NCBI GenBank assembly: GCA_044892505.1
Contig: CM097882.1
Coordinates: 543,430,001 to 543,494,000, forward strand
Reading direction: 5' to 3'
DNA: 64,000 nt
DNA from: Schmidtea nova
Lineage: Eukaryota
This document shows positions 7,213 through 29,354 of this stretch, one piece after another. The stretch's first letter is position 1. Every line of letters begins with the position of its first letter. The notes under the pieces are model-generated. The model was not told the DNA's origin. It did not search any database and worked only from the letters and a program-made list of their open reading frames with translations. The translations under genes and the position numbers were made by a program.

Positions 7213-10200
7213 ATTTTTACCTGGATTTTTAAGTAGACATACCGTTCGATTTTCATAGTTGGAATTTTCTTGTTCATTCTTGTTCTCTTTATTTTCATCT
7301 TTGTTTTCATTGTTTTTATTCTCCCATTTCTCACTGTTTCCGTGATTTCCGTGATCACTGTTATCATCATTTTGCTGCTGTTCGTTGCTATCGTTGTCTT
7401 CATCGTCTGGTTTATCGTTTGATTTATCGTCATCGGGGTCGTTTAGATCACCCTCGGTTTCTTTTGAAATGTCGTCCTCGACATTTATATCCTTTATTAT
7501 TTCCCAATACAATTTGATAATTCTTTGTTCATCTAGTTTTATTTCACCCATTTTGCATTTCAATGTTCCAGCATCGTCGTGGAGATAACTCTTGTCTTTA
7601 TTTTTGATCTTTTTTCGCCATTCTTTAACCAATTCAAGTAGTTTTTCTCTCTTTGTTTTTATTTTCATTTCTTCGTTTGGCTTGTTTGTGAATCTGAAAT
7701 CTGGTCTTTTTAGTAGTGCTTTTGCTACTCTAGGTAATGTCCAATTTTCAATCAAAGCTCGCTCCATTAACACATTTTTATCATATTTGAACTCGTTGTT
7801 CACATTCATCAGTCCTTCTCCAGAGAGTGGATCTTTCCATTTTATCATTTTTGAAGCTACTATTTCATCTTTTCTTATCACTGCCCTTAATAATGGCTTT
7901 GGATTTAAACTCAGTATTTCGATGTCCTCTTGACTTGCTTTTGATAAAAGATACTTGGCTATTGTATAATAAGGTGATCTGTAGACATATGATAATACAG
8001 TTTCATTGTTGTTATCCCTTTCTTTGATACTTGACCCTGTTCTTAATAACTCCTCGATTAAGTCTTTGGACCCTCCTTCTTCTACCGCTAGCATTAATGG
8101 TGTTTGTCCTTTCCAATTTTTTATATTCGAGTGTTGTCCGCATCTTTCCATGAGTTTAATTATTTCCATAGCTCTTTTTCCTTCTCCCTTCCTCAAGGCT
8201 ACATTTAGTGGTGTTTCCTCATTAAAATCAGTCATTGTAAATAATATTGGCATCCGCTCCTTGATTATATCAATGAAATTTGGTGTTGCCTTTCCTCTGG
8301 CATACTCATTTATTATCCGATTTAGTCCGTTTATTATTTCGAATACGTGTTTGCCTTCTGTCCATTCCGGCATAATTTCTTTTGCTGTTCCTATTATCAG
8401 ATCCATTTCTTTTATATGTTCCATTCTCGCATCATCCGTTATTTTTTGCTTAATTTTTAATGTTGGACTTCTCATCTTTGGTGCAAAGAATGTTGCTCCA
8501 CAACATCCACATCCTTTACTCTTTCTAAGCATGCATATTTGTCTTGTCTGTGATCTGGTCATTATCCTCCTTTCCTCTGGTTCTTTTGTCGCAGTTTTTT
8601 CTACTCGTTTACATCTACACACGTTCACGTATATCGGTCGAACTAACGGATTGTTGACTAATTTTACCCGGATGTTATTTTCGCTAACAAATATGACTTC
8701 ATATGGTCCTTTTCCCGTTCTCTGTAATTTTTTCGCTGTTCCTGGGATGATTTCTGGTGTTTCGACTATCACCCAATCGCCTAGCTTGAACTGATGTTCG
8801 TGTACATTTCTCTTTTTGTCATGTAGTTCTTTGTAGCTCTCTTGATTGAATCGTATATTCATACCTGCAACTTTCCAAATTTCTTGCATTCGCTCCTTGA
8901 ATTTTGTTACGTAATCGTCGATTTCCATATATTGTGATATTGGTGGTTGATATTCAAGATCCATTGGCATGTTACATTCTCTGCCGTACATCAATTTAAA
9001 CGGACTCATTTTTGTTGCCGAGTGAATCGACATACGGTATGCCATTAGACATAGATTCACATATTCATCCCAATCCTTTTGGTGTTTACTGACATAATTT
9101 GACATCATCTCAATCAATATTCCGTTAAATCTCTCCGTTTGTCCATTTGTTTGGGGGTGATATGGTGAAGTTCTCAACTTAGCAATTCTGAAATAATTGG
9201 TAACTTCGTTGATGATCTCGCTCATAAAATTTGTTCCTTGATCGGTTAATATTTGTTTTGGTGTTCCATATCTACAACATATTTCTTCGACTAATATTTT
9301 GGCTATTGTTCTAGCTTTCTGATCTGGCATTGCAAATGCTTCTGGGAATTTTGTTAAGTAATCAGTTATTACTAATATATAAACATTTCCATGATTCGTT
9401 TCTGGTAATGGTCCTACTACATCCATTGCGATCATTGTCATAGGTTCTGGTGGAATTGGCATTGGTTTTAAAGGTGTTTTCATTTTACTGCCAGTGCTTT
9501 TTCGCGTTGCACATATTAAACAATTCCTAATCCATTCTTTCACATCTTCTCCAATATTTGGCCAAAAATACTTCTGTTTTAATCTCGCTTCCGTTTTCTT
9601 AGCTGACATATGTCCACCAAGTTTTCCATCGTGGTATTGCATCAAGATGTCTTTCCTTCTACCTTCTGGTAAACACATGAGTCTTTTTTCTCCGTCCATT
9701 GCTAATAACCAGCCTTTTTCGATTGTATATTTGTGCCTGTTTTTCTCCATATGCTCCTTTAGTTGGCTGTTATGATCAAAGATTTTCATATCATTCTTAT
9801 TCAAATATTCGATGATTAATTTTAGCTCTTCATCTTCATTTTGTTCTTGTTGTAGTTTAGTGAAATCAATATCTTCTGCGATTATCATACATATTCGCCT
9901 GACATCTTTATCCATTAGTTCCTCAAACATAAACCTTGACATGCAATCCGCATTTGCATTCGCTTTCCCTGACTTGAACTTTATATATGGCGAATATTCT
10001 TGCAGCTGCATTGCCCATCTCATTAATCTGCTTGACGCTTCTTTGTGCTGGCCTAACCATACTAACGGTTGATGATCTGTTGTGATGTATATTTCGTGAC
10101 CCCATAATAGATATTTGAAATGTTTAATCGCCTGAATGATTGCTAGCGCTTCTCTTTCCGTTACCGAGTAATTCTTCTCGTGTTTTCGAAAGGTTTTGCT

Positions 10201-13200
10201 GTAATATCCTATCACTCTTTCTCTCCCATCTTCATCCCATTGTCCTAGTACGGCTCCTGACGCGTATCCACTTGCGTCGGTTGCTAATAGAAATGGTTTT
10301 TTGAAATCTGGGTGTACTAATATTGGCGATGAAATTAACTTGTCTCGCAACTCTTCAAATGCATTTTGTTGCTCTCTTTCCCAGATAAATGGTGTATCTT
10401 TCTTGACTAGCTCTTGTACAGGCTTTGCAATTCCGGCATAGTTTTTAATAAATTTCCGATAATAACCACATAGTCCTAAAAATTCTTGTACTTGGGTTAT
10501 GGTTTTCGGTATAGGACAATTTTTTATCTTTTCGATATTTCTTGGGTCCGGCTCTTTTCCTTTAGCTGATACAATGTGACCCAAAAAGGTAACTTTTGGT
10601 TTTGCCCAATCACATTTTGATGGTTTCAATTTTAATTTCCATTGCCTTAATCGGATGAATACGTTTTGGATATCTTGTAAATGTTGTTCAAACGTACCCG
10701 AGTAAATCAATAAATCGTCAATATATACCATACATTGTTTTATCCCGTGAGTTACAAAATTCATGCATCTTTGAAATGACGCAGGTGCATTAGTTAAACC
10801 AAATGGCATCTTCTTGAACTGGTACAGATCTTTTCCGATGGTAAACGCTGTTTTCTCTCTGTCCTCTTCTTTCACTTTAATCTGCCAGTAACCGCTTTTC
10901 AAATCTAATGACGTGAAGTATGCTGCACCATGTAATGTTTGTAACATTTCGTTGATATCTGGTAACGGGTATGTATCTCTCTTGGTTACTGCGTTCAATT
11001 GTCGATAATCAATACAAAATCGTTGGGTACCATCTTTCTTTTTTACCATTACTACTGGAAATTGCCATGGTGAACAACTTGGTTCAATCACATCTGCGTC
11101 TAACATCTTTTGCACTTCGGCTTCGGCCACTGCTTTCTGCGCCTCTGCTAGTCGATATGGTCTCAATGTGATCGGTGTTTCGTCTGTTAGGGGAATAGTA
11201 TGTTGAGTTACATCACTCGTTCCCAAGTCTAAATCTGATGCTGCAAAGATGTCTTTAAATTCTAACAATACTGTTTTTAGTTTTTCTTTTTCAATATCGT
11301 TTAAAATTTCACTGTCGATTACCCATAACTCCTCCACTTTACTTTCATCCTCTTGAATTTTAGGTAATTCAATATTCATCATCGGGGTTAATTTTCCCAA
11401 TCTCTCATTTTCGTAAATGATTTTGTCTTCCTCATCGAAATTGGTGATGTTGATTGGTATTTCGTTTTCTTTATTGACGTTCACTATTTCTCTTGCCAAT
11501 GGTAACTCTTTTCTCATCTCAAAATTTTGATTTGGCTCAAATATCATTTCCCCGACTGCCGTGTCTTTTACTTTGGTGAAACATATCATTTGCGTTCTTC
11601 CTGGTACGACAATTTTCTTTGAACACCTTACTTCCGTTTTCATTGAACAGATTTGTCCGCTTTTATCTTTCAATCTCATCGTACTCAAATCGATAACAAT
11701 CTCCTTTAATAATTCTGGCATTAAGTCTGTACCAATGATACATGAGGCACCCAATTGTTTTATTACAGCTAAATAAGTAGACATCTCTACGTCTTTATAC
11801 TTAATATCTGACCATATTTTCCCAATAACTTTGACTGATTCTTTATTGCACGTGACCACATCCATTGGTGCTTCTTCAATGCAAGGCCATAACATGCCTG
11901 GTATCATGTTCATGTTTATTGCTGATATATTTGCACCGGTATCTATCATTGCATCCATTTCAACACCGTTGATTTCAATGGCAATAGTAAGGGTTGGTCC
12001 AGCTGATGTTCTCATCATGGCTATTGTCATTGTTTCTAGATTTTTCTCTTCGCTTTGTGGTCTGTTTAGTATTGTTGGGTCTGGTCTGTTTAGTATTGCC
12101 GGGTCAATCATTGCCCAATTTGGTTCGTAATGTGCTGGGTAGAAATTTGGCATTGGTAACATTCGTAGTCCAGCTCGTGTTTTTTCTCTCACTGTTCCTG
12201 GTCTTTGTGGGTTAGGGTATGTCATTGGTGGTAAATTTTGACCTTCCCATTGTTTTGATTTTTCTGCTTCCCATATTGGTGCGGTACCATTTGATCCGGA
12301 GTTCGTTCCTCCTTGATTTCCTTTGTCATCGTTATCACTATCGTCATCATCCGAATCTTTCCTTCGGTTATCCCACCATCTTTTCCATCCACTAGGTCTG
12401 GTTTCTTTATATTTCGTTCTCTCTGCTTCGTTTTTCATAATGAATCTAAATTTTCTACCGATCTCTTCGTCGGTTCCTTTCATCTTGGTCAATATTCCAA
12501 TTAACCTCTTTATTCTATGAATGTCTTTTGAATGCCCATGCAATACCATAGTTTTAGCCAAAAATGGTAGGAATCCAAGTGCCATTTTCCAATTGATTTG
12601 TCTCTCTCTTTTATAGATATCAAAACAAGCTAGCATCTGAGTTATAATAACTCTGACTATTTGAATAATTAGGATTATCCCTAATATTCCTGCCATCATC
12701 TGTCCAAATACTAAGAATCTTCCCCACATGGCTTTCATCATATTATTGGTTGCGTGTTTAAAATGTTCTGGTGACAACAATAACTCGTAGTTCGGACTTC
12801 CCACGAAATTTGTTCCACCGGTTATGGCTATAATATTTGATAATACTGCTTGTCTTTGGGTTGGAAATAGTATATGCTTTCTCGCTGCTTCTAAATCTGC
12901 ATCTCTGTACACTCCACTGTGTGAAATATCTATGGGTTTAAATTCTATTTCTGTTGTTAACTCTGTTAATCCAAATCGTTTAGGTGCTGATACAATTTGC
13001 CGATTTGGAAAAACTACCCATTTTGCATTTCCCATGTCATACATTGGTCCATACGCATTACTGCAATTGAACTGATGGGGTTCGTAATTTGGTGGATTTA
13101 TTATTCTCGTTACTGCTTGTACAAATCGACTTCTTCCCTTGTAGAATATTTCCAATTCGTTAGTACATCGGTTTTCTGGTATTCTTGGTCTTTCCGGTAG

Positions 13201-16200
13201 TCTTGCTATCTCTTTTTTGCATTTGTATGTATACATAACTTCTCCCACAATTCGACCGAAATGTCCTTCTTGCAGTGGTAATAGTGGTATTGCGTTATCT
13301 GGATTCGTTATAGCCATTGCTAATTTGGTTCTCAAAATTTCTCTGTTCAATATACAATCGTTTTGTATCAAATCATGATATACTTTCTCTGTGGTTGCCA
13401 TACCTCTATGGTATAAGAAATCCATTTTATTATTTGCGTACAAATACGTTTTAATGTCCACTGTATCTGGTTTTGGTGCTGCTTCAGCTATCACTGTTGT
13501 AGATAGGAAAATTCCTTTGTAATTCGTTTTTATTACTAATCTTCCGCATTTACTGACGGTTTCACCTTTGATGAATCTCATTCCCACTCCTGGATCTTTT
13601 GCTAAAATTGTTGTTGATATAATTGCTGTTGGTGTATTTACTAATTTAAGTTTTTCCGTCGTCTCTTTATGCTGGAATGTTCTTGTTCTTTTGAGCTGTT
13701 CCATTTCTTGTCTGGTTGAATCATCTTTGGGCTCGTCATAAACTTTTCCTAGTATTTCCTCGAATTCAGCTTCTTGTAATAACATTAGTCGACATTTATT
13801 CGCATCTGCCTTATAAATCAATGTTGATGCACCAGTATTACACGAGGTATGTTCTGCAGAACAACTTGGGAATTTTCTCATTGATAGCGTGTCTGGATCA
13901 AAATATCCCGGATATGTTTCTAGTTTCACTTGATACATCTCTATTACTACTACATTGCTGACCACTTTTCCTAATAGAGTGTATGCTCCTCCTTTACAAC
14001 TTCCGTCCGGTTTATTGACGTATCCGGCTGCATAAACTCTTGTTATTTTAATTGCTCCTGGTTGGGCAGCTATTATTATGTTTCCTGCTAACGATATCCG
14101 TTTTGAGGTAAACGCTTCATTGCACTTTTCGCTATCCAGTGATATTACGGTTGATTCCATTCCTGGTTCGATAATTGTTGAATATGAATATTGTCCACAG
14201 TAATACGCAAATAACTTTCTCGTAACCGTGCATTCTCTTATTTCTGCTTTGATGAGGTCTGATTCCTGATACACGTTGTAACTTATTTTATTCACAATTC
14301 TTTCCAATTTTTTCGGCGTGGCTTGTTTACAATCTTCCGTATCTTTTAATGAATATTTCTCGCTAAGCTCGATTTTGTCACAATCGTATACCACAAACGC
14401 TGTTGCTCCCTTTATGCACATCATCCAAATCAATATTGTGGTCAATATCGCATTCATACTCTTCCCATATGTTTTTTGATCGCGAAAATTCATTGATCCT
14501 TCGAATTCTGTTAATAATTCTCTCAACTTTACTTGCATGGTTTCTGTTTGATCTATTTTATCTACTGAGTTGATGAATGTTTTCCAACCTCCTTGTTTCA
14601 TTACATACGGCTCTATCAGTTTCTCAATGATTTCCGTTATTGTGAATATATGACCATTTGAACTGTATCTGGGTGTTCTCCGTTTGTACAAGACGATCAT
14701 ATTGTACATTAAATATGCCAAGCTTACTAAATATTTTGCTGGTTCGTTCGTGTTGTTTGTTAATTTTTCGATAATTTCTTTCATTTCTGCAGGATTTCTC
14801 AACGTCATTCGTACTTTTCCTTCGATGATTTTTGAGATTATTGGTTTAATCGTTATCCACAGTTGTTTGGCTTCTTGTTGGATGTGGTCTCTTTTTAACG
14901 CTCTTTTTATTTCTGGGTTTGCCAATGCAAGCATATCAGATACTAATTCATTTATCCATCGGATTCCTTGTTCGGTTATTGGTGTATTACCTTTCACTTG
15001 ATTTGCAACTGACACTAGTTTGCTTACTTTTAGTTGTAATTGTTCCGTCCTGCTTACTGATGTTGGTTTTTGATTTCTTTCTGTTTGATCTTTCGCCGGC
15101 CTCCCTCTTGGGCGTTTATCTATCATCGTTCCAGCTTCTCGTCTACTTAGCTGATTATTCGCGATTTCTCTCGATGTTGTCGCTCCTCTATCTGTGATCC
15201 AATTACTCCATTCGTCAGTTGTAGAATTTTCTCTTGCTCGTTTTTGTACTTTTTCTCGGTCGGTTTCATCATCGGTTGCTGTGATTTTTTGCCGTTTTAC
15301 CCAAGGAATTCTCTGGTCATCGGTTGTTGTTTCATTTTCTATGTTTGAGAATAAATCCCCTGAGTAAAATGCTGTTTCATCGTTTTCTCTATTCGCAATA
15401 TTTGTCAGTTCTTCTAATACGTCTTCATCAGTTGTTTCGACAATAATTTCACTTGCAGCTTCCGGTATTTCTGGTTCGTCTAAATTTCCGAATAATTTTC
15501 TCATTTGGGTTCGATTTCCCTCTTTTCTGATTAGTTCATTGCCTGCAATTTTAGAAACAGTTAAATGATTACTTGTTCCGATTCGTATCGGGGTTACACC
15601 AATTTCTATCTCATCATCGAGTGATCTTCCTTCGTACTGTAGATGAAATGGTAATTCAAATGGCAGTTTCTTTTTAATCTCTTTTATTTTCGTGGTTGCC
15701 AATACTTCCATTTCTTCCTTTCCAAAGTCTGGAAAATGGATTTTTAATCCACATTTTTGCGGTTCGTCACTTTCCCATTCCATTTGCCTCCATTTTCTTC
15801 TAAGCTCATCGAATTGTTCTGGATACCAAGTGTATACTCGTCCATATTCCTCGATTTCCTTCACGAGCATTGTCATGGTTAATCTATCCTTGCCATTCTC
15901 GAGAATCCATTTTGCTAATTCGACTACCGCTCTTCGTTGATTTTTGGCACCTTTTTCTAAAATATCGATTAACTGTCTACTTTTTTGGGCTTCAGTTCTC
16001 TCTAATACTTCAGGGTCCATCAGTTCATCCATATCTACAGGACGTAATCTCGAGGTTGTTTCTTGTTTTCTTAGCACGCTGATTCTGGGAATTGTCAGCT
16101 TTTCCCTTACGTCTTCCTCAATTTTGCATGAAACATAAATATCTCCTTCACTTTGATATCGAGATTTTTTATCTAATAGCAAGTGTTGCAAGATAAATTT

Positions 16201-19200
16201 TGGTGCTCCTGATGCTATATTTTCCTCTTTTTCTGGTTTATGATAGCAGCTGCAGAGCTTTTCTGGATAAATTTCTTCACTATGACCCTTCTCTGAATTG
16301 TAGGATGATCCTATAGACAATGTTACTTTTTGATCGAACGGCCATGTTAATTCCTCGTCATTGATCCCTTTACAGATGATATAAAATAATGACGTATGAG
16401 TTCCTTTACCAACTCCATCTCCGTTTGGATAAATTCTCATTTTTAATTTATATCCGCCTGGGTAAGTGTAAAATTGTGGGCTTGTCAATCGCGTTACTTC
16501 ACCCTCCTTTGCTGCTCTCACTTTATCTGCCCAATTTGAAATTCTCCATTTGAATGGTGCAAGATATTTCTCTTCGCATATGTTCTCGTCGACTTCCAAA
16601 TGTTTCCCAGTTATTTCTGATGGTTCGTAAATCTCATGGGTTTCCTCATATAACAGTTCCTCAGGTATTCGTTCTGGTTCACATGTTACCCATCTATCCT
16701 CCACATTTGGTTGTTCCCATCTGTATCGATTTTCTAATTCTATCCATGTCTTTATCCACGGCGTTGGTTTACAATCTCCATAATGAAGAGGTTTTATTTT
16801 CCCCTTTATTTCATTATCCGCTCTCCAAAAATTATATAAATCGATTATCTGGTCTAGTTTTCCGACCATTTTTCTTTTAAATCTCCTCACGTGACCATCG
16901 TCTTTCTCTGGTTCGTCCATTGCCCATATTTTAACTGTTTGACCGTCTTCCCAAATACCCAGTTTATATAAAGGTGTCTGATCATCTTTTTCTAATACAT
17001 GTTTATTGTACACGATTATTACATCTTCTATTAATCCGTCATCACTATTTTGTTTCACGTTATGCATAATTTTCTCATCGATTATCCGTATGAATTCGTC
17101 TACCGTACAATCTGGTTCTATTTCAATTGTTTGTTCGTCTCCACTTGGCAACGTTAGATTGACTTTTATCGTTTCCGCTCGATTCTTTGATCTCTGATAG
17201 CCGCCATATTGACTTATTAATTCGATTGCTCGTTTATCATCTAATCTCACTAACTCGGTATCTCGTACGAACTCTACAAATCTCTTCATTGATGCTGGTC
17301 TTCTTCTATTTATACTATCGATCATTTTCCTCGTCTGGTCTATTGCTTGTGTCGAAAGCATTAATCGATTTTCCCATATTGCTTGTTCGGCCAATTTTAA
17401 TAATTTTGGTCCGATTTCATAATCGTATCTATCTCCAATTCTTGTCAGTAGTTTCATCACCGTTTCTTCAATCGCGTTCTTCTTTAACGTTAAGATATTC
17501 AACTCGTTCGGCCATATCATAGCATCTACTAGATGTATTCCCTTTTTGATTCGCCAATTATTCAAATAAAGATAATCGTTTTTAAAACTGCTACCCATTT
17601 TCTCTTGCATCCAGTCATATAATGCGTTAGTATTTGGGTCGTTTATTTTTATTCCTAATACATCGATTTCGGGGTGGTGTACTTCTATCGTATACTCTTG
17701 AGTTGGCGTTTCTTTTAATTGCTTCTTGTATTCCGCTATTGAGTTGTTCCACGCTGCGGTGAATACTTGATTTTCTACCTGATTTGCTTGGGTGACTTCC
17801 TTCATAAACTTCTGATATACTTTTTCATCAATAAACTCCCGATTCTTCATGGCTAATTCAACCTTGCCTGTTACTTCTCCGATGATATTCCAATCGTCTT
17901 CACTTAGCAACGCGTTGCTTGATGTTTCGGTATCACTTTCTTCGCTAGCCAAAGGTGCTTTTAAATCGTTGTTTTCCTCACTTGACGGAAATAAGTCACC
18001 TCCTAAACTACTTACTTCGCTAATCTCGTCTTCTGGATCTGTTTGATCATCATTTCGCATTCTCATCATATTTATTTTATACACATTTTTAAGATCTCTT
18101 TCTTTTTCCTTTTGCGTTCTTGCTTGTGACCAATTCATTGTTGCGTCCCATCGTTTTCTTTTCAGTGCTTCTACTTCTTCATCTGTCAATGTGTTATTCG
18201 CTTTTCGAATTGAAGCTTCAATTTTCTGCAGTAGTGCTCGTTGAAGTCGGTTTCTGGTTATAATTTTTTGAGCTTTCTTTGTGATCTCTTCAACTTCTTC
18301 AGTGCTAGTTTTTTCCAATTTCTGATTTAACTTTCCTACTTCATTCGCGACAATAGTTGTTATTTTCTGTTCTATTTCCTTCGCTTTTATTTTCACTATT
18401 TCTTCCAATTCCTCACAGGTGTTGCAAACATTCCCACTGTCTCTTTTTTCTTTTCTTCTTTGATTATATTCTTGAATGAATATTTTCCTTTCTTCTTCGT
18501 TCATTGATTTTATTGAAACTTCGAATTCTCCATCTTTTTCATTAATCTCTACATCTGGTAACTCTGTTATCATTTCCTTCACTTTTTCTATTACATTCTT
18601 CTGCAATTTACTCATTTCCTCTGGATCTTCTTTATCTTCGCTTTTAACTCTCATCATGTTAATTTGCCTTGTGTTATTTCCTCGATTTTTCCATCTCTCT
18701 TCAATTTCCCGTGCTTCCTCCAACTGAAGTCTCTGCCATTCTGCTTGTTGTTTCGTTTGATTTTTGTTCGTCCTTAACTTGTGAGGCTCGGTGATTTGCA
18801 AAGCATTAATTCTTGGCTGTTGTGGTTGGCTGACTGTTGTTCGTTCGATTAATTCTCTCAGTTGTTCAAGTTCCTGCATCACATTGATTTGTGGTGTTTG
18901 ATTTTGGTTTTCGGTTCGCTGTGGTGCATTGACTTGGTTTGGGCATTCTCTCGCCATATGTCCAGGTTGTTGGCATTTGAAACAATTGGCGTTTCTTCTA
19001 AAATTTCCTCCATTATTGTTATTTCTTACGTAGTAATTTCCTGCACTAGCATTTACGGTTCTGCATACATTTTCTGTATGACCTTTTCTACCACAACTTT
19101 GACATGTTTTAGTGCTATAACATTCATGACTCAGATGTCCAGATTTTTGACAAATGTTACATATTTTGCTGGTGAATAAATTGTTATTCCCGTAATTATT

Positions 19201-20067
19201 CCTATTACTATACGCGTTGCTGTAAGTATTGTTATTTCTGTCTGTATTGTTTCGATTACGGTTGTCCATATTTGTATTCTGATTTCTCATTGGAGTTTTG
19301 AACATTTGTTGCGCTCTTGGTATAAATTGATTCATCATTGGAGTCGTGTTGTCTGGTTGATTACCTTCATTGGTCGTATTGGTTGTTGATTTTGTTGTTG
19401 GTTCCGCTGTCAAAACAGCAACTGTCAATGGTGGTTTTAAATACATTTCGCATCGATTCGCGATTGTCAGTGCTTCCTCCAACGTTTTTGGTGCCTGACA
19501 TCCGATATTTGCACGAATATCATCTCTTCTGAGTCCACTCAGAAATACTCCTACCAATCCTTCATCTTTTACTTTTTCCTCGCCGTAGGCATCTCTTGCC
19601 ATACGTTTTAATTCGCACGCGAACATCGCATTGGATTCGTTGGGTTTTTGTTTTCTGTGGAAGAAATCTAACATTTTCTGATTTTCTTCTTTCGCCACTC
19701 CAAAGGTTTTTTCTAAAAAGTCCTTGATTTCTTTCCATGTTCTCAATTTTTCATCATCTCGTCTTGCCTCTAAATAAACATCTTGTGCGCTTTCTTTTAA
19801 ATATAGCGGCATTCGTTCTCGGGTGGCTTCGTCTGACCAGCGACAGATCGTAATATAAACCTCAAATTCCTTTAGGAAGGTTTGTAATTTACTGATATTA
19901 CCATCAAATGGTTCTCCACGGAATTTTTCTTTAAAATCTCCAAGGTTGGCTGCTGACGTGGTACTCATTTTTATCCCTTCTTTCTCCTCGTCCGAGTTTA
20001 AACTTTCTGTGTAATTCTGGTTAATCTGTTCAATATAATTCCTTTCTACTTCCTCGCTGGTATCCAC
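5275..20067 (-). CDS. Giant Gag-accessory-Env-Pol-accessory polyprotein (4930 codons from GTG; frame open to 20268; true start probably upstream via splicing)
   Basis: Uninterrupted ORF with recognisable gag, MATH, glycoprotein, PR, RT, RH, INT, ankyrin, FN3-like and TM segments. The ORF-track start is GTG, and the first in-frame ATG is MSTTSAA about 33 codons later. Confidence 0.97.
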   Translation of the reverse strand: MDTSEEVERNYIEQINQNYTESLNSDEEKEGIKMSTTSAANLGDFKEKFRGEPFDGNISKLQTFLKEFEVYITICRWSDEATRERMPLYLKESAQDVYLEARRDDEKLRTWKEIKDFLEKTFGVAKEENQKMLDFFHRKQKPNESNAMFACELKRMARDAYGEEKVKDEGLVGVFLSGLRRDDIRANIGCQAPKTLEEALTIANRCEMYLKPPLTVAVLTAEPTTKSTTNTTNEGNQPDNTTPMMNQFIPRAQQMFKTPMRNQNTNMDNRNRNNTDRNNNTYSNAYSNRNNYGNNNLFTSKICNICQKSGHLSHECYSTKTCQSCGRKGHTENVCRTVNASAGNYYVRNNNNGGNFRRNANCFKCQQPGHMARECPNQVNAPQRTENQNQTPQINVMQELEQLRELIERTTVSQPQQPRINALQITEPHKLRTNKNQTKQQAEWQRLQLEEAREIEERWKNRGNNTRQINMMRVKSEDKEDPEEMSKLQKNVIEKVKEMITELPDVEINEKDGEFEVSIKSMNEEERKIFIQEYNQRRKEKRDSGNVCNTCEELEEIVKIKAKEIEQKITTIVANEVGKLNQKLEKTSTEEVEEITKKAQKIITRNRLQRALLQKIEASIRKANNTLTDEEVEALKRKRWDATMNWSQARTQKEKERDLKNVYKINMMRMRNDDQTDPEDEISEVSSLGGDLFPSSEENNDLKAPLASEESDTETSSNALLSEDDWNIIGEVTGKVELAMKNREFIDEKVYQKFMKEVTQANQVENQVFTAAWNNSIAEYKKQLKETPTQEYTIEVHHPEIDVLGIKINDPNTNALYDWMQEKMGSSFKNDYLYLNNWRIKKGIHLVDAMIWPNELNILTLKKNAIEETVMKLLTRIGDRYDYEIGPKLLKLAEQAIWENRLMLSTQAIDQTRKMIDSINRRRPASMKRFVEFVRDTELVRLDDKRAIELISQYGGYQRSKNRAETIKVNLTLPSGDEQTIEIEPDCTVDEFIRIIDEKIMHNVKQNSDDGLIEDVIIVYNKHVLEKDDQTPLYKLGIWEDGQTVKIWAMDEPEKDDGHVRRFKRKMVGKLDQIIDLYNFWRADNEIKGKIKPLHYGDCKPTPWIKTWIELENRYRWEQPNVEDRWVTCEPERIPEELLYEETHEIYEPSEITGKHLEVDENICEEKYLAPFKWRISNWADKVRAAKEGEVTRLTSPQFYTYPGGYKLKMRIYPNGDGVGKGTHTSLFYIICKGINDEELTWPFDQKVTLSIGSSYNSEKGHSEEIYPEKLCSCYHKPEKEENIASGAPKFILQHLLLDKKSRYQSEGDIYVSCKIEEDVREKLTIPRISVLRKQETTSRLRPVDMDELMDPEVLERTEAQKSRQLIDILEKGAKNQRRAVVELAKWILENGKDRLTMTMLVKEIEEYGRVYTWYPEQFDELRRKWRQMEWESDEPQKCGLKIHFPDFGKEEMEVLATTKIKEIKKKLPFELPFHLQYEGRSLDDEIEIGVTPIRIGTSNHLTVSKIAGNELIRKEGNRTQMRKLFGNLDEPEIPEAASEIIVETTDEDVLEELTNIANRENDETAFYSGDLFSNIENETTTDDQRIPWVKRQKITATDDETDREKVQKRARENSTTDEWSNWITDRGATTSREIANNQLSRREAGTMIDKRPRGRPAKDQTERNQKPTSVSRTEQLQLKVSKLVSVANQVKGNTPITEQGIRWINELVSDMLALANPEIKRALKRDHIQQEAKQLWITIKPIISKIIEGKVRMTLRNPAEMKEIIEKLTNNTNEPAKYLVSLAYLMYNMIVLYKRRTPRYSSNGHIFTITEIIEKLIEPYVMKQGGWKTFINSVDKIDQTETMQVKLRELLTEFEGSMNFRDQKTYGKSMNAILTTILIWMMCIKGATAFVVYDCDKIELSEKYSLKDTEDCKQATPKKLERIVNKISYNVYQESDLIKAEIRECTVTRKLFAYYCGQYSYSTIIEPGMESTVISLDSEKCNEAFTSKRISLAGNIIIAAQPGAIKITRVYAAGYVNKPDGSCKGGAYTLLGKVVSNVVVIEMYQVKLETYPGYFDPDTLSMRKFPSCSAEHTSCNTGASTLIYKADANKCRLMLLQEAEFEEILGKVYDEPKDDSTRQEMEQLKRTRTFQHKETTEKLKLVNTPTAIISTTILAKDPGVGMRFIKGETVSKCGRLVIKTNYKGIFLSTTVIAEAAPKPDTVDIKTYLYANNKMDFLYHRGMATTEKVYHDLIQNDCILNREILRTKLAMAITNPDNAIPLLPLQEGHFGRIVGEVMYTYKCKKEIARLPERPRIPENRCTNELEIFYKGRSRFVQAVTRIINPPNYEPHQFNCSNAYGPMYDMGNAKWVVFPNRQIVSAPKRFGLTELTTEIEFKPIDISHSGVYRDADLEAARKHILFPTQRQAVLSNIIAITGGTNFVGSPNYELLLSPEHFKHATNNMMKAMWGRFLVFGQMMAGILGIILIIQIVRVIITQMLACFDIYKRERQINWKMALGFLPFLAKTMVLHGHSKDIHRIKRLIGILTKMKGTDEEIGRKFRFIMKNEAERTKYKETRPSGWKRWWDNRRKDSDDDDSDNDDKGNQGGTNSGSNGTAPIWEAEKSKQWEGQNLPPMTYPNPQRPGTVREKTRAGLRMLPMPNFYPAHYEPNWAMIDPAILNRPDPTILNRPQSEEKNLETMTIAMMRTSAGPTLTIAIEINGVEMDAMIDTGANISAINMNMIPGMLWPCIEEAPMDVVTCNKESVKVIGKIWSDIKYKDVEMSTYLAVIKQLGASCIIGTDLMPELLKEIVIDLSTMRLKDKSGQICSMKTEVRCSKKIVVPGRTQMICFTKVKDTAVGEMIFEPNQNFEMRKELPLAREIVNVNKENEIPINITNFDEEDKIIYENERLGKLTPMMNIELPKIQEDESKVEELWVIDSEILNDIEKEKLKTVLLEFKDIFAASDLDLGTSDVTQHTIPLTDETPITLRPYRLAEAQKAVAEAEVQKMLDADVIEPSCSPWQFPVVMVKKKDGTQRFCIDYRQLNAVTKRDTYPLPDINEMLQTLHGAAYFTSLDLKSGYWQIKVKEEDREKTAFTIGKDLYQFKKMPFGLTNAPASFQRCMNFVTHGIKQCMVYIDDLLIYSGTFEQHLQDIQNVFIRLRQWKLKLKPSKCDWAKPKVTFLGHIVSAKGKEPDPRNIEKIKNCPIPKTITQVQEFLGLCGYYRKFIKNYAGIAKPVQELVKKDTPFIWEREQQNAFEELRDKLISSPILVHPDFKKPFLLATDASGYASGAVLGQWDEDGRERVIGYYSKTFRKHEKNYSVTEREALAIIQAIKHFKYLLWGHEIYITTDHQPLVWLGQHKEASSRLMRWAMQLQEYSPYIKFKSGKANANADCMSRFMFEELMDKDVRRICMIIAEDIDFTKLQQEQNEDEELKLIIEYLNKNDMKIFDHNSQLKEHMEKNRHKYTIEKGWLLAMDGEKRLMCLPEGRRKDILMQYHDGKLGGHMSAKKTEARLKQKYFWPNIGEDVKEWIRNCLICATRKSTGSKMKTPLKPMPIPPEPMTMIAMDVVGPLPETNHGNVYILVITDYLTKFPEAFAMPDQKARTIAKILVEEICCRYGTPKQILTDQGTNFMSEIINEVTNYFRIAKLRTSPYHPQTNGQTERFNGILIEMMSNYVSKHQKDWDEYVNLCLMAYRMSIHSATKMSPFKLMYGRECNMPMDLEYQPPISQYMEIDDYVTKFKERMQEIWKVAGMNIRFNQESYKELHDKKRNVHEHQFKLGDWVIVETPEIIPGTAKKLQRTGKGPYEVIFVSENNIRVKLVNNPLVRPIYVNVCRCKRVEKTATKEPEERRIMTRSQTRQICMLRKSKGCGCCGATFFAPKMRSPTLKIKQKITDDARMEHIKEMDLIIGTAKEIMPEWTEGKHVFEIINGLNRIINEYARGKATPNFIDIIKERMPILFTMTDFNEETPLNVALRKGEGKRAMEIIKLMERCGQHSNIKNWKGQTPLMLAVEEGGSKDLIEELLRTGSSIKERDNNNETVLSYVYRSPYYTIAKYLLSKASQEDIEILSLNPKPLLRAVIRKDEIVASKMIKWKDPLSGEGLMNVNNEFKYDKNVLMERALIENWTLPRVAKALLKRPDFRFTNKPNEEMKIKTKREKLLELVKEWRKKIKNKDKSYLHDDAGTLKCKMGEIKLDEQRIIKLYWEIIKDINVEDDISKETEGDLNDPDDDKSNDKPDDEDNDSNEQQQNDDNSDHGNHGNSEKWENKNNENKDENKENKNEQENSNYENRTVCLLKNPGKNTIIMTILLTMLNWVKAIDYIFDQRRAEARIVTDTENIWITNIKGELIIKICTVAIRKNGVSDHQKCIRTALAIGEEQKVEKLESGTTYIICIYRTNQIRAICAAKEMITKMGNERNRLEKIQSVTKTPIDENEEENEEEEQDKKVMMTIQNKTTIEVKEKEMMVTNNVREPITQICWIKTIHMQNKDRQLSCKFQMTGQNGKFRIPGLKPGTSYTICIRRIWTQKLCLEKPTKEIITTTTTTSGTTTYYPLIVETKSTEIILINNHEEVIKKVCWRKVDMNSGLDNPSKCYQQSVKGKEQMIIKELESKTTYLICIWRTFVPICQEHTTTEQIITSTESGREPDEKAIRLPRATITVTEKPTIVKGYRKEIEISITPNQIQKETEKFFQNDIIKVKNVQGHLIARICIYEVKLQQEKCKSVSNKEEKSFIEEEEYYVAGWERGTKYRVCLYKKLNEDPTCQFISKLPRRVDDTREFSIEDQILTTTKPTVYNKYISEEEAERIIQGGRPIKIVQTTTESPTTISAAVEESKIAIKMIWITAGIIGAILVLILTQHAKITGRCKRKTKRKRQWPSIEKFEYGISLEEVKTEDEYEICNGSEFNGMWMQGLPPTINPSIIEADIYRTTNELYGGMRNLHFGPQETLV
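7845..8235 (-). other. Ankyrin repeats (about 4) C-terminal to integrase
   Basis: FNEETPLNVALRKG, WKGQTPLMLAVEEG...LIEELLRTGS.I..RDNNNETVLSY and KPLLRAV match the TPLH.A / L.LL..GA ankyrin pattern. Confidence 0.88.
8640..9635 (-). other. Integrase (HHCC, DDE core, GPY/F)
   Basis: H...GGH...C..C, MDVVGPLP, TDQGTNF, YHPQTNGQTERFN, GKGPYEV. Confidence 0.97.
9935..10300 (-). other. RNase H (Ty3/Gypsy type)
   Basis: LATDASG..GAVLGQ...IGYYSK.....EKNYS.TEREALAII...TDHQPL...NANADCMSR. Confidence 0.96.
10550..11150 (-). other. Reverse transcriptase
   Basis: SPWQFPVVMVKKKDG..RFCIDYRQLN...LDLKSGYWQI...KTAF...MPFGLTNAPASFQR...YIDD (10714-10725). Confidence 0.98.
11690..12000 (-). other. Aspartic protease
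   Basis: IEINGVEMDAMIDTGANISAI (DTG at 11935-11943) and downstream CIIGTD. Confidence 0.95.
12500..14457 (-). other. env: Envelope-like fusion glycoprotein, chuvirus/Monjiviricetes type, embedded between Gag and protease
   Basis: Signal-like MNAILTTILIWMMCIKGATA followed by FVVYDC...SL.D..DC. Cys-rich ectodomain with GEVMYTYKC...C..EL.I...G..RF...VTR...C...Y....W, and a C-terminal TM (12643-12718). Confidence 0.8.
14570..15030 (-). other. Bcl-2-like helical domain
   Basis: About 150 aa amphipathic helical region ending YVMKQGGWKTF (14575-14607), matching the BH2 consensus WI..QGGW..F. BH1 is divergent, with no NWGR. Confidence 0.65.
15555..15747 (-). other. Second ubiquitin-like domain (divergent)
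   Basis: LKIHFPDFGKEEMEVLATTKIKEIKKK...HLQYEGRSLDDEIEIGVTPIRIGTSNHLTV matches the L.y.Gr.L.D...I ubiquitin motif. Confidence 0.6.
16114..16560 (-). other. TRAF-type MATH (TRAF-C) domain within polyprotein
   Basis: FKWRI...SPQFYTYPGGYKLKMRIYPNGDGVGKGTHTSLF...G.ND..LTWPFDQKVTL...P..E.NIASGAPKF is a near-complete TRAF-C signature. Confidence 0.95.
16921..17172 (-). other. Ubiquitin-like domain within polyprotein
   Basis: TIKVNLTLPSGDEQTIEIEPDCTVDEFIRII...IIVYNKHVLEKDDQTPLYKLGIWEDGQTVKI follows the beta-grasp ubiquitin pattern. Confidence 0.75.
18940..19165 (-). other. Three CCHC zinc knuckles (nucleocapsid)
   Basis: CNICQKSGHLSHEC, CQSCGRKGHTENVC and CFKCQQPGHMAREC all fit CX2CX4HX4C. Confidence 0.95.
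19430..19930 (-). other. gag: Gag capsid-like domain
   Basis: PFDGNISKLQTFLKEFE...W...LYLKESAQDVY...W..IK..L...F...QKPNESNAMF..EL...GL...EAL..A resembles the retrotransposon Gag capsid pattern. Confidence 0.85.
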
Positions 20068-20944
20068 AGATAAACTTTCCGATGTTGCAAACTCTGTTTG
20101 TTCGGATGAAGGCCTTCTGTTGTGTGTTCTTGAAGATTTCGCAGTTTCTTTCTCTTTGTTTTCTAGTAGACTTAGCTCTCTGTCTAAATTTTGATCTTTG
20201 TCTTGATTTTTACGCTTTAATAGCCGCTCTGCGATACTCCCAGTATTCCCTGCTTTGTCAATTGTTGATTATTTCTCTCTTACGGTTAGATTCTCTTTTA
20301 TATTTTTCTTCTTTTACTTCTTTCCTCTTCAATGAGTCTTCTTTTTCTTCTTTTTCTTCCTTTATTCCTGTTTTCAAAACTGATTCACTTGAATTTGATG
20401 GTTTTGGTTTGATGTTATCTAAAAATATAAAAAAATGGATCCATTTATAATTAATTTTGTTCATCATTTTAGGCTTCTTCCTCTTTCCCACCGTTCCGAC
20501 ATCGTCGCTACTCACCCCCCATAATTTAGGTGGATTTTAATTTATCTATACCTCGTAATAATTATCTATGTAGGGTCGTACGGTTTACCTGGTACCTTCA
20601 TCCATAATAATAATGATAATAATAATAATAATACTAATTATAATAATAATTTGCACAAAACTTTTCTTAACATAACTCTCATACTTCGTTTCGAAATCAT
20701 GATTTTCACAAATACTTTATTTATTTATTGTCGTCGTTCTCTTTCAGATTTTCTGATGTTTCCAGCTAGCTTTTTATAATATTTCTTAATGGATGTTACA
20801 ATTCTTACGCTGTCATTCTATCCTATTTTTCCTAGATGTACCTTCTTTAATCTCTTTTTACTAACTTCTATTTTCTCAAAATGCATTTTATTTCTTCTAC
20901 GAGCTCTCAAAATTTCTCACATGCATGAATTTCTATATATTTTT

Positions 20945-22488: not shown

Positions 22489-22815
22489 TTATGAACAAAA
22501 TACTACGATTTTGTCATCAGTTGTCTGTTTGCAGATTACACATCTCTTTATTTCTCTAGAGCACGGCTGGCAATAATACAAATGCCCACACGGCATGAAT
22601 AAAATGTTCGCTTCTCTTTGTCGACAAATATAACATCCTTCGAACAAATCGATCTGTTGATTTATCGATCTCTCTAGCTTGTCCATAATTTTATCGATTT
22701 TACCAATCCATTCTTGTATTTTTAAATTAAAACTCGGATTATTCGGTCGCAATCGTCGTAATTCATAAATTGTCTCTAACGAAATATTGTTTGTTGTTCC
22801 TACAATTCCTTTCAT
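22489..22815 (-). CDS. Small IAP-like C3HC4 RING finger protein (108 aa from first ATG) in element leader
   Basis: CYICRQREANILFMPCGHLYYCQPCSREIKRCVICKQTTDDKIVVFCS* fits the IAP/MGRN-type RING with an aromatic C-terminal tail. The ORF-track start at 22848 is GTG; the first ATG is at 22815. Confidence 0.85.
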   Translation of the reverse strand: MKGIVGTTNNISLETIYELRRLRPNNPSFNLKIQEWIGKIDKIMDKLERSINQQIDLFEGCYICRQREANILFMPCGHLYYCQPCSREIKRCVICKQTTDDKIVVFCS

Positions 22816-22974
22816 TTCATTTTCTCGTTCGAATCTCTCGCTCAACACTCAATTCACCGTAACATATGCTCAATCGCTTCCATCTAAAATATTCATGATG
22901 ATCGGTGTTTATAACTTTTTGAATTAACCATTCATTATGATTTGAACGAAAAATAAATAATAAATTATATTTTT

Positions 22975-24133: not shown

Positions 24134-27100
24134 AGTAAAATCAAACACAATTTTCCGCTGTTTCTGTCAAAATTTTATTTAACAGTTTGTTGATGTTTTA
24201 TGAAAACTTTCATTAAGTCTCGCGCGAACTCGTTTTAGTTGCTTTTCGATTTTTTCAAGCAAAACAAACTCAAATCCCGGCTGAGCCCCCAAATTTTTAT
24301 ATGGTGGGTCGTTGATCGTCAATATGACCTTGACGTTGCTATGGCCCTCATCAACAACCCAACACACAAAAATATTGAAATTTACCACCTTGTTACCCGT
24401 CACTATGTAACGTTGGTACTGTAACAAGTGGGTGGGTATTCGCAATCAGTGAGCGTCGTCAATACGAAACTATGATTGACCGAATATCTCCTGGGTCCAA
24501 GGGCTACCGATAGAAGGTTTCTTGCCCATTTTGTCCCCTTCTTCGACGATTTATCTTTAAGCATTCAACAAAATTTTATCGGCAATTCAACATTAATATT
24601 CTACCTAACTATAAATTCGTGATTACATCCAAATAAATCATTCCGAGCATCAAAACACTAATAAAACATTAAATTTTACTTATATTATAATTTATGTTAA
24701 TTATTAATGAAAGTATTCTAAAATAAAATTTTTAATTTACATTTGCATTTACGATAAAATCAAGACTTTAATTCTTAATTTGTGAATATTTATAACTAAT
24801 TTACTTTTATAACTAATTGATATTCCGAAACAATTTGTTTCAATCCATCATTCAATCCACAACAAGCCGAACACCATTCAAATTCACCAAGCATAATTTT
24901 CTACGCAAATCATTTCTCTCTATTGGCAAAACAAGTAAATTTTTAAATTAATTGATATGCTGAAATTAATTCTTTTCATAGCCCTCAATTTCAAAAACAC
25001 AGGTGGAAACTCAGTTCGGAAATCTTAGCAACTACGTCTTATCACTTTAATCTATTTGACAGATTTGAATATCTAACAATTATCCAAACCATTAATCCAA
25101 TCGACAAATCCCAATTAATCAACAATCCGCGACAATGTCTAATGATCATGACTCCAATAAACCAGCGTTGTGGTCATCCATGTCAGTGACAAATACTGCT
25201 TAACAATATCTTTTCTTAGTGCTGAATTTAATATATGTACTTTATTTGCATTTTTACTTTTTATGTAAAATGGTTTTTATCATACAAAAGGGTAACAATT
25301 AATTATTTTAATTAAAATACTTAAAGTTTTGCTAGACGAAATATAATAATCTTTGAATTTCATGTGAAAATAAATTGATTGTCACTAGATGAAATATAAT
25401 ATTATTTTAAAATAATATACCAAATTTTACTTTAAAAGGCACCATAAATTCACAATAATACAATTTTTTAACTTAAACATTATTGATTTTAAAGGCAATC
25501 TTGAAAACTTCCTAATATCCGTTACAAATAAAAAGGTTCCACACCAAATGTTTGTGGTGGGTGAATGGATGAAACCTTGGCATTGTCCTTCTGGAGGCAT
25601 GCATGTCTACGCATGATGTGGGATACTATCATTTCGAGCTTGATTGTTGATACACTTTTACAGGTTTATTATGAATTTTTCATTGATAGTGCAGGAGATT
25701 GTATGTGATTATATGTGTCTGTATGTTGACTTGAATGTTGGATGAGAATAAATAATTTATTGGTGGATGAGGTGTAGTATGATGACTGTGTGTTCTATTG
25801 TTACTGTTGGGTTTGTGTGTGATTGTATGATGAGCGATTTAAAAACAATTGAGTGCTTGTGAGTGTGGTTGGACGTATAATTCTAACTAGCATGTCTGTG
25901 TGAAATTTTTGGGGTAGCTGGTTGGTGTGTATGTGATTGTTGAATGTTATTGAGTGATACGGTGTAGGTGTGTCTATTGTATTTTATACGTATGTTGTTT
26001 GTATATTAATATGGATGATGCTATTGAGTGAAAAGGGTGTAAATCTTTGCAATGGGTGATGTATTAGTATTTTAAGATGTCGTGGGGGGTTATATTATAA
26101 ATTAAATAAATTGTATAAAATATTTCTAAAGTTAAAATAAAAATAAAAAAAAAATTTTTAAAGTTAAACTAATGGTAATGATTTTTAGATCAAGATAATA
26201 ATAATAATTTTTAGATCGAAATAATAATAATATTTCTCATAATGCTTTTTTACAAATTTTTAAGTTTTAAAATTTCTACGAAAAACAATTAACGATAAGG
26301 TTTATAATTTTTTATAATGTCGATTTGAATTTACAATTTTTATACTTTAAGAATAGAATAAAAAAAAAATTTCTATAAAATCTCGAATTCAGATTTTTTA
26401 TAAAATAATAAAATTTATTAATATAATAATAAAATTTCAATCTAAATTTTCATGGGGTTTAATATAACTTTTGATTTTCAAATTCTCGGGAATTTTACGA
26501 AATGATAAAATCCTTTTATATATTAATAATATTAGGAACCAAATTTGGTTTACAATTTTTCCATATAAAATCTTTTCAACATAATAAAAAGCAAATTTCT
26601 ATTTCTGATCCAAATGAAATGATAATAAATTTTTATCCATAAATTCAAGATCTAAATAAGCATTTAATCTAAAAAAACTTTACCTGCTAAATAAAAATAA
26701 AATAAAAATAAGTTATAAATTTTTCAACGAGTATTTTTAACCTCAAGCAAAGTAAATTTCGGTTTTGTTGAGCATGAATTTCCCAACTAAGTGTGCGCGA
26801 ACCTTTCGGGACACTTCACTCAGGAATTTCAGGCTCTCGAAAAACAAGATTCACAGGAAAACTTATTTAGACCATAATGAGCTTTAATTCAGATTAAATC
26901 AATACTTGTTTCACAATTTGTTTCACTTCATGAGCATTATTCTAGACTTGAGCATTATTTCGAACCATTTTCTTTTCATCATCAGCATCCATTTTTCTTG
27001 CATTTTCTTATGAGATGAACGTTGTTGAGAGTGCGAAGGTGAAGGCGAGTACGAGTCGATTTTTTAATCAATAATATTTCCTATTTTAGATTTCAAGACA

Positions 27101-29062: not shown

Positions 29063-29211
29063 GTCTTAAACACACACACACACAATTTATCTATGTACAA
29101 AAAATTATTATTATTAAAAATTATATTTCATTAGTCTTTGTTTCGTTGCACATGGATTGCAATGTCTTTGTTTCTTTGCACATGGATTGCATTGTCTTTG
29201 TTAATATTTGT

Positions 29212-29354
29212 TGATGAGTCATACTGATGAGTCATACCAATGAGTCATACTGATGAGCCATACTGATGAGTCATACTGATGAGTCATACTGATGAGTCAC
29301 ACTGATGAGTCATACTGATGAGTCATACCAATGGGTCATACTGATGAGTCATGG
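29212..29354. repeat. Minisatellite, 11 x 13 bp (TGATGAGTCATAC)
   Basis: Eleven units counted, 8 with perfect ATGAGTCAT. Confidence 0.95.

What the first reader, a model, noticed from the sequence alone, without database searches (positions are those of the whole stretch)
16114..16560. Intact TRAF-type MATH domain fused in Gag region
Seen: an almost textbook TRAF-C sequence (GYK.....NGDG.GKGTH.SLF, WPF..KVT, N.ASG.PKF) without the N-terminal RING. Known: RING-less TRAF domains act as dominant negatives of TNFR/TLR signalling. Inference: a decoy of host TRAF signalling, or a trimerisation/adaptor module for particle assembly.
Basis: partly seen in the sequence, partly recalled or inferred. Interest (0 to 1): 0.72.

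Follow-up and report, generated by a model that had tools for sequence, protein, structure and literature searches.

The report
TRAF domain in giant flatworm retroelement
A giant, recently active flatworm retrotransposon carries an intact piece of a host signalling adaptor (TRAF) that likely helps it steer the survival or immune signalling of the cells it lives in; this cargo is already described in print, but related elements in the same genome carry a whole TRAF gene beside a cell-death inhibitor.

Summary
In detail: 16114-16569 (minus strand) is an intact TRAF2/3-type MATH (TRAF-C) domain (PDB E 2.5e-30). It lies in one 4,997-codon ORF (Gag, ubiquitin-like, MATH, Env, PR-RT-RH-IN, ankyrin, FN3) of a 28.6-kb Gypsy element with 99.98% identical LTRs. 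This is the Burro/GYPSM1 type of planarians, where MATH_TRAF_C is already reported (PMC6431247). The domain is not decaying: 30 of 30 position-sampled copies are whole, pN/pS 0.14, and the receptor groove is largely kept. It lies 790 codons beyond the Gag knuckles, just before a likely protease site, and lacks the TRAF-N coiled coil. It is therefore likely released as the tip of a ubiquitin-like/MATH adaptor rather than built into Gag. The decoy reading is unproven. Not found in the papers I could read: a sister family carries a full-length TRAF 3' of pol (111 exact probe matches). A related family with no detected Gag, RT, integrase or Env carries full-length TRAF beside a BIR-RING IAP (1,144 matches), both under purifying selection. 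Verdict: known kind, modest interest, with one better lead.

The parts
16114..16569 (-). TRAF2/3-type MATH (TRAF-C) domain, ORF codons 1234-1385
   Evidence: Pfam E 8e-25; PDB TRAF2 E 2.5e-30; model and fold searches
5275..20268 (-). Single open frame of 4,997 codons (first Met at 19968): Gag-Ubl-MATH-Env-PR-RT-RH-IN-Ank-FN3
24302..28558 (-). 5' LTR, 4,257 bp, TG...CA ends; 4-bp target duplication GAAT
1..4171 (-). 3' LTR (begins 85 bp left of the window); 99.98% identical to the 5' LTR
19525..19806 (-). Retrotrans_gag core
   Evidence: Pfam E 2e-6
18937..19161 (-). Three CCHC zinc knuckles
   Evidence: sequence; Pfam zf-CCHC for one
18064..18078 (-). Putative protease-cleavage motif at the start of the MATH-bearing product (inferred)
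   Evidence: motif scan; similar motif at the same place in P0026
17479..17706 (-). Ubiquitin/SUMO-like domain (predicted)
   Evidence: model residues 12-87, VIA Z 9-10 to SUMO/ubiquitin-like chains
16924..17169 (-). Second possible ubiquitin-like domain
   Evidence: sequence pattern, low-confidence model, weak FERM_f0 E 0.07; not shown
16051..16692 (-). Segment (codons 1193-1406) present here but replaced by 13 residues in sister family B; holds linker and MATH
16072..16086 (-). Putative protease-cleavage motif just after the MATH (inferred)
   Evidence: same motif in P0026; similar motif at the homologous place in family B
15553..15777 (-). Possible ubiquitin-like domain after the MATH, the position reported for Ubi2/SUMO-like in Burro
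   Evidence: by eye and conserved in families B and D; no significant database match
14569..15066 (-). Possible BCL2-like helical domain
   Evidence: low-confidence model; no significant hit, but most top Foldseek rows are Bak/Bax/Bcl-xL
12604..14406 (-). Env-like fusion glycoprotein, in frame between Gag and protease
   Evidence: Pfam Monjiviricetes_fusion E 1e-71
9112..11985 (-). Protease, reverse transcriptase, RNase H, integrase (Gypsy order)
   Evidence: Pfam
7936..8241 (-). Ankyrin repeats
   Evidence: Pfam Ank_2 E 2.6e-13
5545..7146 (-). FN3-like repeats followed by a hydrophobic, likely transmembrane stretch
   Evidence: Pfam fn3 E 1.4e-5; sequence
22489..22848 (-). Separate upstream ORF ending in an IAP-type RING
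   Evidence: Pfam zf-C3HC4_3 E 2e-13; best PDB hits cIAP2, cIAP1, XIAP; present in two other copies of this family

Best explanation
This is an intact TRAF-C domain of the host's TRAF2-like type, kept by purifying selection inside the polyprotein of a Burro-type giant Gypsy element, and it likely works as a peptide-binding adaptor at the C-terminal tip of a protease-released ubiquitin-like/MATH protein that would engage host TRAF-binding partners to tilt stress, immune and death signalling in the element's favour. Shown: identity, intactness, selection, position, missing coiled coil. Inferred: capture from a host gene; release by the element's protease as a product of about 660 residues (codons ~731-1397); binding of Px(Q/E)E-type motifs through the kept groove; a pro-survival outcome, by association with the element's IAP-type RING, the possible BCL2-like domain and the TRAF-IAP cargo of sister families.
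For: Intact in 30 of 30 copies taken as the first 30 by position of 248 exact probe matches, with no indel or stop; 34 synonymous versus 19 non-synonymous distinct changes, pN/pS 0.14, p 5e-12. Same position in a distant element fragment P0026, 39% identical over 838 residues. Against TRAF2 hot-spot residues (PMC6125299 passages; mapped through): R393, Y395, F410, L432 and S454 are kept; F447I, F456Y, C469A and S455C differ, with C and Y at the last positions also in host TRAF2-like paralogs; S453 is C in the window but S in 25 of 30 copies. A cleavage-like motif occurs 10 times in this polyprotein, mostly at domain borders (shuffles: mean 1.5, max 6 of 500) and 7 times in family B, from which it was not derived (mean 1.4). 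One site directly follows the MATH here and in P0026, and a similar one lies at the homologous place in family B. A ubiquitin-like fold lies in the same product. Planarian TRAF2-like genes are needed for cell survival (PMC7586133 passages). Burro1's IAP is reported to protect stem cells (second-hand, PMC13465017 passages).
Against: No binding partner, expression or cleavage was shown. The cleavage motif was read off this polyprotein by eye before it was counted. Flanking regions show similar constraint (pN/pS 0.15-0.22), so selection is not special to the MATH. Against the two most divergent family copies, which were picked for their Pfam score, the MATH has higher dN/dS (0.29 and 0.55) than most domains. 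In P0026 the groove has drifted further (F456S, S467G, S454M). The autonomous sister family B has no MATH in its polyprotein. The pro-survival direction rests on association only.
Confidence: 0.48

Rival explanations
1. Dominant-negative decoy: the RING-less TRAF-C occupies receptor or adaptor motifs and blocks host TRAF signalling, damping an antiviral or stress response.
For: No RING or zinc fingers in frame; groove largely kept; planarian TRAFs are among the TBK1-regulated immune genes (PMC13563047 passages).
Against: No TRAF-N coiled coil: the 110 residues before the MATH hold 8 prolines and score 1.07 on my crude heptad measure, against 1.35-1.73 for six full TRAFs; the model is disordered there. 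Loss of host TRAF2-like function raises apoptosis. Sister families keep RING-bearing, full-length TRAFs under purifying selection, which fits a gain of TRAF activity better than a block. RING-less TRAF transcripts are common in planarians.
Confidence: 0.25
2. Structural trimerisation or assembly module for the element's particle.
For: Most aromatic residues at or near the TRAF2 subunit interface (PMC8198530 passages) are kept when mapped through: Y350, F354, F381, Y382, Y388, W424, Y484; F491 is Y and Y386 is G. The domain is made in cis with Gag and Env.
Against: The coiled-coil stalk is absent. Four cleavage-like motifs lie between the zinc knuckles and the MATH. Family B, 54-56% identical over the stretch from after the MATH through pol and with near-identical LTRs, lacks the in-frame MATH. 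The kept aromatics may simply be fold core.
Confidence: 0.12
3. Passenger: a captured domain with no current role, kept only because the long frame must stay open and folded.
For: Family B lacks it in the polyprotein; the groove drifts in P0026; an internal deletion in one family B copy has fused protease and TRAF MATH in frame (L076), so such fusions arise readily.
Against: An open frame does not require low amino-acid change; pN/pS 0.14. The domain is kept at the same place across about 60% protein divergence.
Confidence: 0.1

Closest known systems
Burro / GYPSM1 giant Gypsy-like LTR retrotransposons of Schmidtea mediterranea (Jurka 2007; Grohme 2018; as reviewed in PMC6431247, passages read)
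   Same: Giant size, multi-kb LTRs, one ORF of about 5,000 residues with retrotrans_gag, three CCHC knuckles, MATH_TRAF_C, env in frame between gag and pol, PR-RT-RH-IN, ankyrin repeats.
   Different: 28.6 kb rather than over 30 kb. No BIR was detected in this element, only an upstream IAP-type RING ORF. A ubiquitin-like domain lies before the MATH, and an FN3-transmembrane tail follows the ankyrins; neither is in the passages read. No direct comparison with a named Burro sequence was possible.
Burro1 B-IAP (Lee et al. 2026, Dev Cell; not held, known only through PMC13465017 passages)
   Same: A Burro element carrying captured apoptosis-control cargo with an IAP-type RING.
   Different: In this genome the BIR-RING ORF was found on a related family without detected RT/IN, directly beside a full-length TRAF, not on the window's element.
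Human TRAF2/TRAF3 TRAF-C domain (PDB 1ca4, 8zuk)
   Same: Fold, about 38% identity, polar pocket R393/Y395 and most of the hydrophobic pocket.
   Different: No TRAF-N coiled coil, zinc fingers or RING; serine triad reads S-S-C in most copies, C-S-C in the window.
Planarian TRAF2-like genes (Dugesia japonica TRAF2-like A, ADF47429.1 = P0031; host loci L034/L035)
   Same: Highest identity among host genes examined (45-50%); shared x-x-C-Y groove ending.
   Different: The host genes are full-length; a tree with the element MATH nested beside this paralog alone is rejected (p-AU 0.025).

Membership tests
Burro-type giant Gypsy LTR retrotransposon | Giant element with multi-kb LTRs and target-site duplication | tested here: met
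   28,643 bp, 4.26-kb LTRs, TG...CA, GAAT duplication; slightly under the 30 kb quoted for Burro
Burro-type giant Gypsy LTR retrotransposon | Single ORF of about 5,000 residues starting with retrotrans_gag and CCHC knuckles | tested here: met
Burro-type giant Gypsy LTR retrotransposon | MATH_TRAF_C within the polyprotein | tested here: met
Burro-type giant Gypsy LTR retrotransposon | Env-like fusion glycoprotein in frame between gag and pol | tested here: met
   PF24664 E 1e-71
Burro-type giant Gypsy LTR retrotransposon | PR-RT-RH-IN order, then ankyrin repeats | tested here: met
Burro-type giant Gypsy LTR retrotransposon | Ubi2/SUMO-like domain between MATH and BCL2-like | tested here: inconclusive
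   candidate at 15553-15777 without a significant match; a Ubl fold was shown upstream of the MATH
Burro-type giant Gypsy LTR retrotransposon | BCL2-like domain before env | tested here: inconclusive
   model pLDDT 47; no hit at E 0.001, top rows mostly Bcl-2 family
Burro-type giant Gypsy LTR retrotransposon | dUTPase-like domain between PR and RT | not tested
   no dedicated test; Pfam listed none
Burro1 in the strict sense | BIR (B-IAP) carried by the element | tested here: inconclusive
   no BIR in the polyprotein or RING ORF scans; window not among 150 scored of 1,295 BIR candidates; part of the leader reads N. Not filed as Burro1.
Burro1 in the strict sense | Sequence identity to the published Burro1/GYPSM1 | not testable with these tools
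   no named reference sequence was returned
TRAF-type MATH (TRAF-C) domain | TRAF-C beta-sandwich and family profile | tested here: met
TRAF-type MATH (TRAF-C) domain | TRAF1/2/3/5 receptor-binding hot spots | tested here: inconclusive
   polar pocket kept, hydrophobic pocket with conservative changes, serine triad partly changed as in host paralogs; binding untested
TRAF protein (whole) | TRAF-N coiled coil before TRAF-C | tested here: not met
   so a TRAF-C domain, not a TRAF protein
TRAF protein (whole) | N-terminal RING and zinc fingers | tested here: not met
   present in the TRAF ORFs of families B and D

The most novel reading that the evidence does not exclude
The window's element is the helper for a far more numerous non-autonomous partner (family D, 1,144 exact probe matches against 248). 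The partner has given up Gag, Env, RT and integrase but keeps, side by side and under purifying selection, a full-length RING-bearing TRAF and a BIR-RING IAP, the two halves of the TRAF-cIAP ubiquitin-ligase module. Helper and partner would together supply a mobile, multi-copy survival-signalling kit to planarian cells, with the in-frame MATH as one derived form of an ancient TRAF capture.
Probability: 0.35. Interest if true: 0.68.

Novelty: new member of a known kind. Interest (0 to 1): 0.36.

Why it matters
The MATH cargo itself is known, so the finding as written is not new. What this work adds is evidence that it is under selection, keeps most of its groove, lacks the coiled coil and sits at a likely processing boundary, which narrows its function to testable options. 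If the side finding holds, more than a thousand element-borne TRAF and IAP genes would bear on how retroelements alter cell-death control in regenerating animals. They would also mean that part of the reported planarian TRAF/MATH expansion (PMC6109357, passages) may come from transposons.

Tried and rejected
Word-index homologue search with the MATH among longer proteins: 0 of 286 candidates passed. With the 814-residue region: 1 of 7,996 (P0026). ESM Atlas on the region before the MATH gave no usable hit. Sequence searches for the BCL2-like part gave only weak bromodomain or histone rows, rejected as chance; its fold search had no hit at E 0.001. No RNA holder was listed among 4 runs, which says nothing on expression. 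A genome search for the Rel homology domain rang nowhere, controls included, so it is uninformative. Donor paralog: not resolved. Nesting beside TRAF2-like A alone is rejected (p-AU 0.025); origin from the short MATH-only host clade is not rejected (0.106); an independent capture from the nine-row TRAF2-like clade is not rejected (0.056 without family D, 0.42 with it). The second half of one tree script was killed and repeated in quick mode. A scan for TRAF-binding motifs in the polyprotein found 5 short matches, none convincing. Variation in the 30 loci was set aside as biased, since those loci were chosen for MATH similarity. Earlier scan notes: three look-ups returned nothing. Lee et al. 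2026 and one attempt at Grohme et al. 2018 were not held; their text and supplements may already describe families B and D. No tRNA gene and no Pfam hit in 9 ORFs outside the element.
Full report
Observation. The minus strand holds one open frame of 4,997 codons at 5275-20268. Pfam calls a TRAF/meprin MATH domain (E 8.3e-25) and the best solved relative is human TRAF2 (E 2.5e-30). A model built on an 11-row alignment is confident over this domain and matches TRAF1/2/3/5, with VIA Z 21.8 to TRAF3.

The element. Two LTRs of 4,257 aligned bases, 99.98% identical, with TG...CA ends and a GAAT target duplication, bound 28,643 bp, which points to a very recent insertion. Pfam finds retrotrans_gag, a CCHC knuckle (three by eye), MATH, a Monjiviricetes-type fusion glycoprotein, protease, RT, RNase H, integrase, ankyrin and FN3, all in the one frame. 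This matches the Burro/GYPSM1 elements of planarians as reviewed in PMC6431247 (passages read). That review lists MATH_TRAF_C, BIR, ankyrin, BCL2-like, Ubi2/SUMO-like and an in-frame env, and says a Dugesia tigrina relative has the MATH in an upstream accessory ORF. A host paralog in this genome groups with Dugesia japonica TRAF2-like A (99/83), so the host is inferred to be a dugesiid planarian. The cargo is therefore known in kind.

Is it decaying? A protein search scored 150 of 2,405 candidates; all were 97-100% identical and 149 of 150 had no stop, but these were chosen as best matches. To avoid that bias I used a 24-base probe outside the domain: 248 exact matches, none in the control. 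In the first 30 by position, 30 of 30 cover the MATH fully with no indel or stop. Distinct single-base changes were 34 synonymous and 19 non-synonymous (pN/pS 0.14, p 5e-12; shared changes 0.09), with 3 multi-hit codons left out. The test assumes equal mutation rates and the copies are related. Neighbouring regions are similarly constrained (0.15-0.22). Two more divergent copies gave MATH dN/dS of 0.29 and 0.55 on few changes. An unnamed protein, P0026, is 39% identical over 838 residues and has the MATH at the same place.

The groove. Using the TRAF2 hot spots of PMC6125299 (passages) mapped through: R393, Y395, F410, L432 and S454 are kept, as are D399 and S467 (these two recalled as groove residues). 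F447, F456, C469 and S455 become I, Y, A and C, and the host TRAF2-like paralogs also have C and Y at 455-456. S453 is C in the window but S in 25 of 30 copies. P0026 and the sister families have drifted further.

Position and likely processing. The MATH starts 790 codons after the last knuckle. A motif of the form [RKQTH][IV][NCASG][MAVL][LMI], which I read off this polyprotein by eye, occurs 10 times, mostly at domain borders, against 1.5 in 500 local shuffles (max 6). It occurs 7 times in the sister family B, against 1.4. Sites at codons 731 and 1395 flank a segment of about 660 residues holding an acidic stretch, one shown ubiquitin-like fold (Z 9-10), a possible second one and the MATH at its end. 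Family B aligns on both sides but has 13 residues in place of codons 1193-1406, including a similar motif. The MATH thus sits just before a shared site, which would leave it C-terminal as in natural TRAFs. That these are protease sites is inference. The 110 residues before the MATH are proline-rich and score low for heptads, unlike six full TRAFs, and are disordered in the model. The TRAF-N stalk, which forms the trimer stem and one main partner-binding region (PMC6125299, PMC8198530 passages), is absent. Against this, most aromatic residues at the TRAF-C interface are kept, so weak self-association is not excluded; it could not be modelled.

Origin. In a 42-row MATH tree the window pairs with P0026 (99/95) and all six element rows group at 94/84, just short of strong support and on long branches. 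I left out near-identical element copies and several short host rows, and used 20 of the 150 listed database proteins. In a 26-row full-length tree the TRAFs of families B and D group at 100/99, outside the host clades, nearest by path to the TRAF2-like A group. An independent capture for the window's lineage is not rejected (p-AU 0.42; 0.056). Capture from a planarian TRAF2-like gene is likely; the donor and the number of captures are open.

Sister families. A Pfam search of the genome (150 scored of 2,419) showed host TRAF loci, many on C2 at 405-455 Mb, and a dispersed 476-codon ORF. Family B is an autonomous-looking relative, 54-56% identical from after the MATH through pol, with a full RING-zinc finger-MATH TRAF ORF directly 3' of pol in 3 of 3 copies examined; its probe has 111 exact matches. 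A BIR search (150 scored of 1,295) led to family D. Two copies examined span 23-25 kb between near-identical repeats. They share LTR ends and leader with the window's element at about 85-94%, including the RING ORF (75% protein identity), and give no tblastn hit to Gag, knuckles, Env, RT, RNase H or integrase. They keep protease and ankyrin parts, a full-length TRAF and, next to it, a BIR-RING IAP. The probe has 1,144 exact matches. In the first 20 by position, TRAF is present in 20 and intact in 16; IAP is present over 90% of its length in 19 and intact in 15; pN/pS is 0.19 and 0.26. Dependence of D on the window's family is inferred from the shared ends.

Mechanism. The best reading is an adaptor: a released Ubl-MATH protein that binds host TRAF-motif partners and, with the element's other cargo, favours survival of the expressing cell (0.48). 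Planarian TRAF2-like knockdown raises cleaved caspase-3 (PMC7586133, passages), and Burro1's IAP is reported to protect stem cells (second-hand through PMC13465017, passages). A decoy (0.25) remains possible, since planarian TRAFs are TBK1-regulated immune genes (PMC13563047, passages); that paper found no clear NF-kB homologue, so an NF-kB reporter is a poor test. An assembly role (0.12) and a passenger (0.10) fit worse.

Novelty. The MATH in Burro elements is in print. Full-length TRAF ORFs, the TRAF-IAP tandem and a non-autonomous carrier did not appear in the passages read. Searches returned no paper describing them. Lee et al. 2026 and Grohme et al. 2018 could not be read, so they may be known. 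PMC6109357, PMC11410931, PMC8532177 and PMC7958881 were seen as passages only; no supplements were read. Verdict: new member of a known kind, interest 0.36; the family D lead would merit about 0.68 if true and undescribed.

Noticed in passing
G000 C1:54613523-54636811 (L133-L135) and C1:487511405-487535968 (L138-L140): Family D: 23-25 kb LTR elements with no detected Gag, Env, RT, RNase H or integrase, carrying full-length TRAF beside a BIR-RING IAP and three or four ORFs of no known family; 1,144 probe matches; LTR ends and leader shared with the window's element.
   Followed up: partly
L065:296-1723, L075:5221-6669, L123 (minus strand): Family B: sister element without in-frame MATH but with a full-length TRAF ORF just 3' of pol, followed by further ORFs of no known family; 111 probe matches.
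   Followed up: partly
L076:2026-5937: A family B copy in which Env, protease and the TRAF MATH lie in one frame, apparently through an internal deletion; it shows how an in-frame MATH can arise.
   Followed up: no
window 22489-22848 (-): Accessory ORF in the leader ending in an IAP-type RING, no BIR seen; homologues upstream in families A, B and D.
   Followed up: partly
window 5278-7203 (-): The polyprotein ends in a receptor-like part: hydrophobic leader, FN3-like repeats, a transmembrane-like stretch and a tail ending ETLV, which resembles a PDZ-binding motif (recalled, untested).
   Followed up: no
window 20904-21517: Tandem array of 24-26-base units in the leader, also present in family D.
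   Followed up: no
window 24274-24291 (-): Likely primer-binding site near the 5' LTR that resembles the complement of a tRNA-Pro 3' end (recalled, untested).
   Followed up: no
G000 C2 about 405-455 Mb (most of L031-L060): Large cluster of host TRAF/MATH loci, many with short MATH-only open frames (possibly exons), some in tandem arrays.
   Followed up: partly
window 14569-15066 (-): Helical domain ending GGWKTF, like a Bcl-2 BH2 motif (recalled); low-confidence model ranks Bak/Bax/Bcl-xL first without significance.
   Followed up: partly
window 29186-29367; 45362-45552; 50911-51102; 63774-63995; 48226-48604 with 53663-54044: Outside the element: a 13-base tandem array, three short imperfect palindromes and a 380-base repeat pair.
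   Followed up: no
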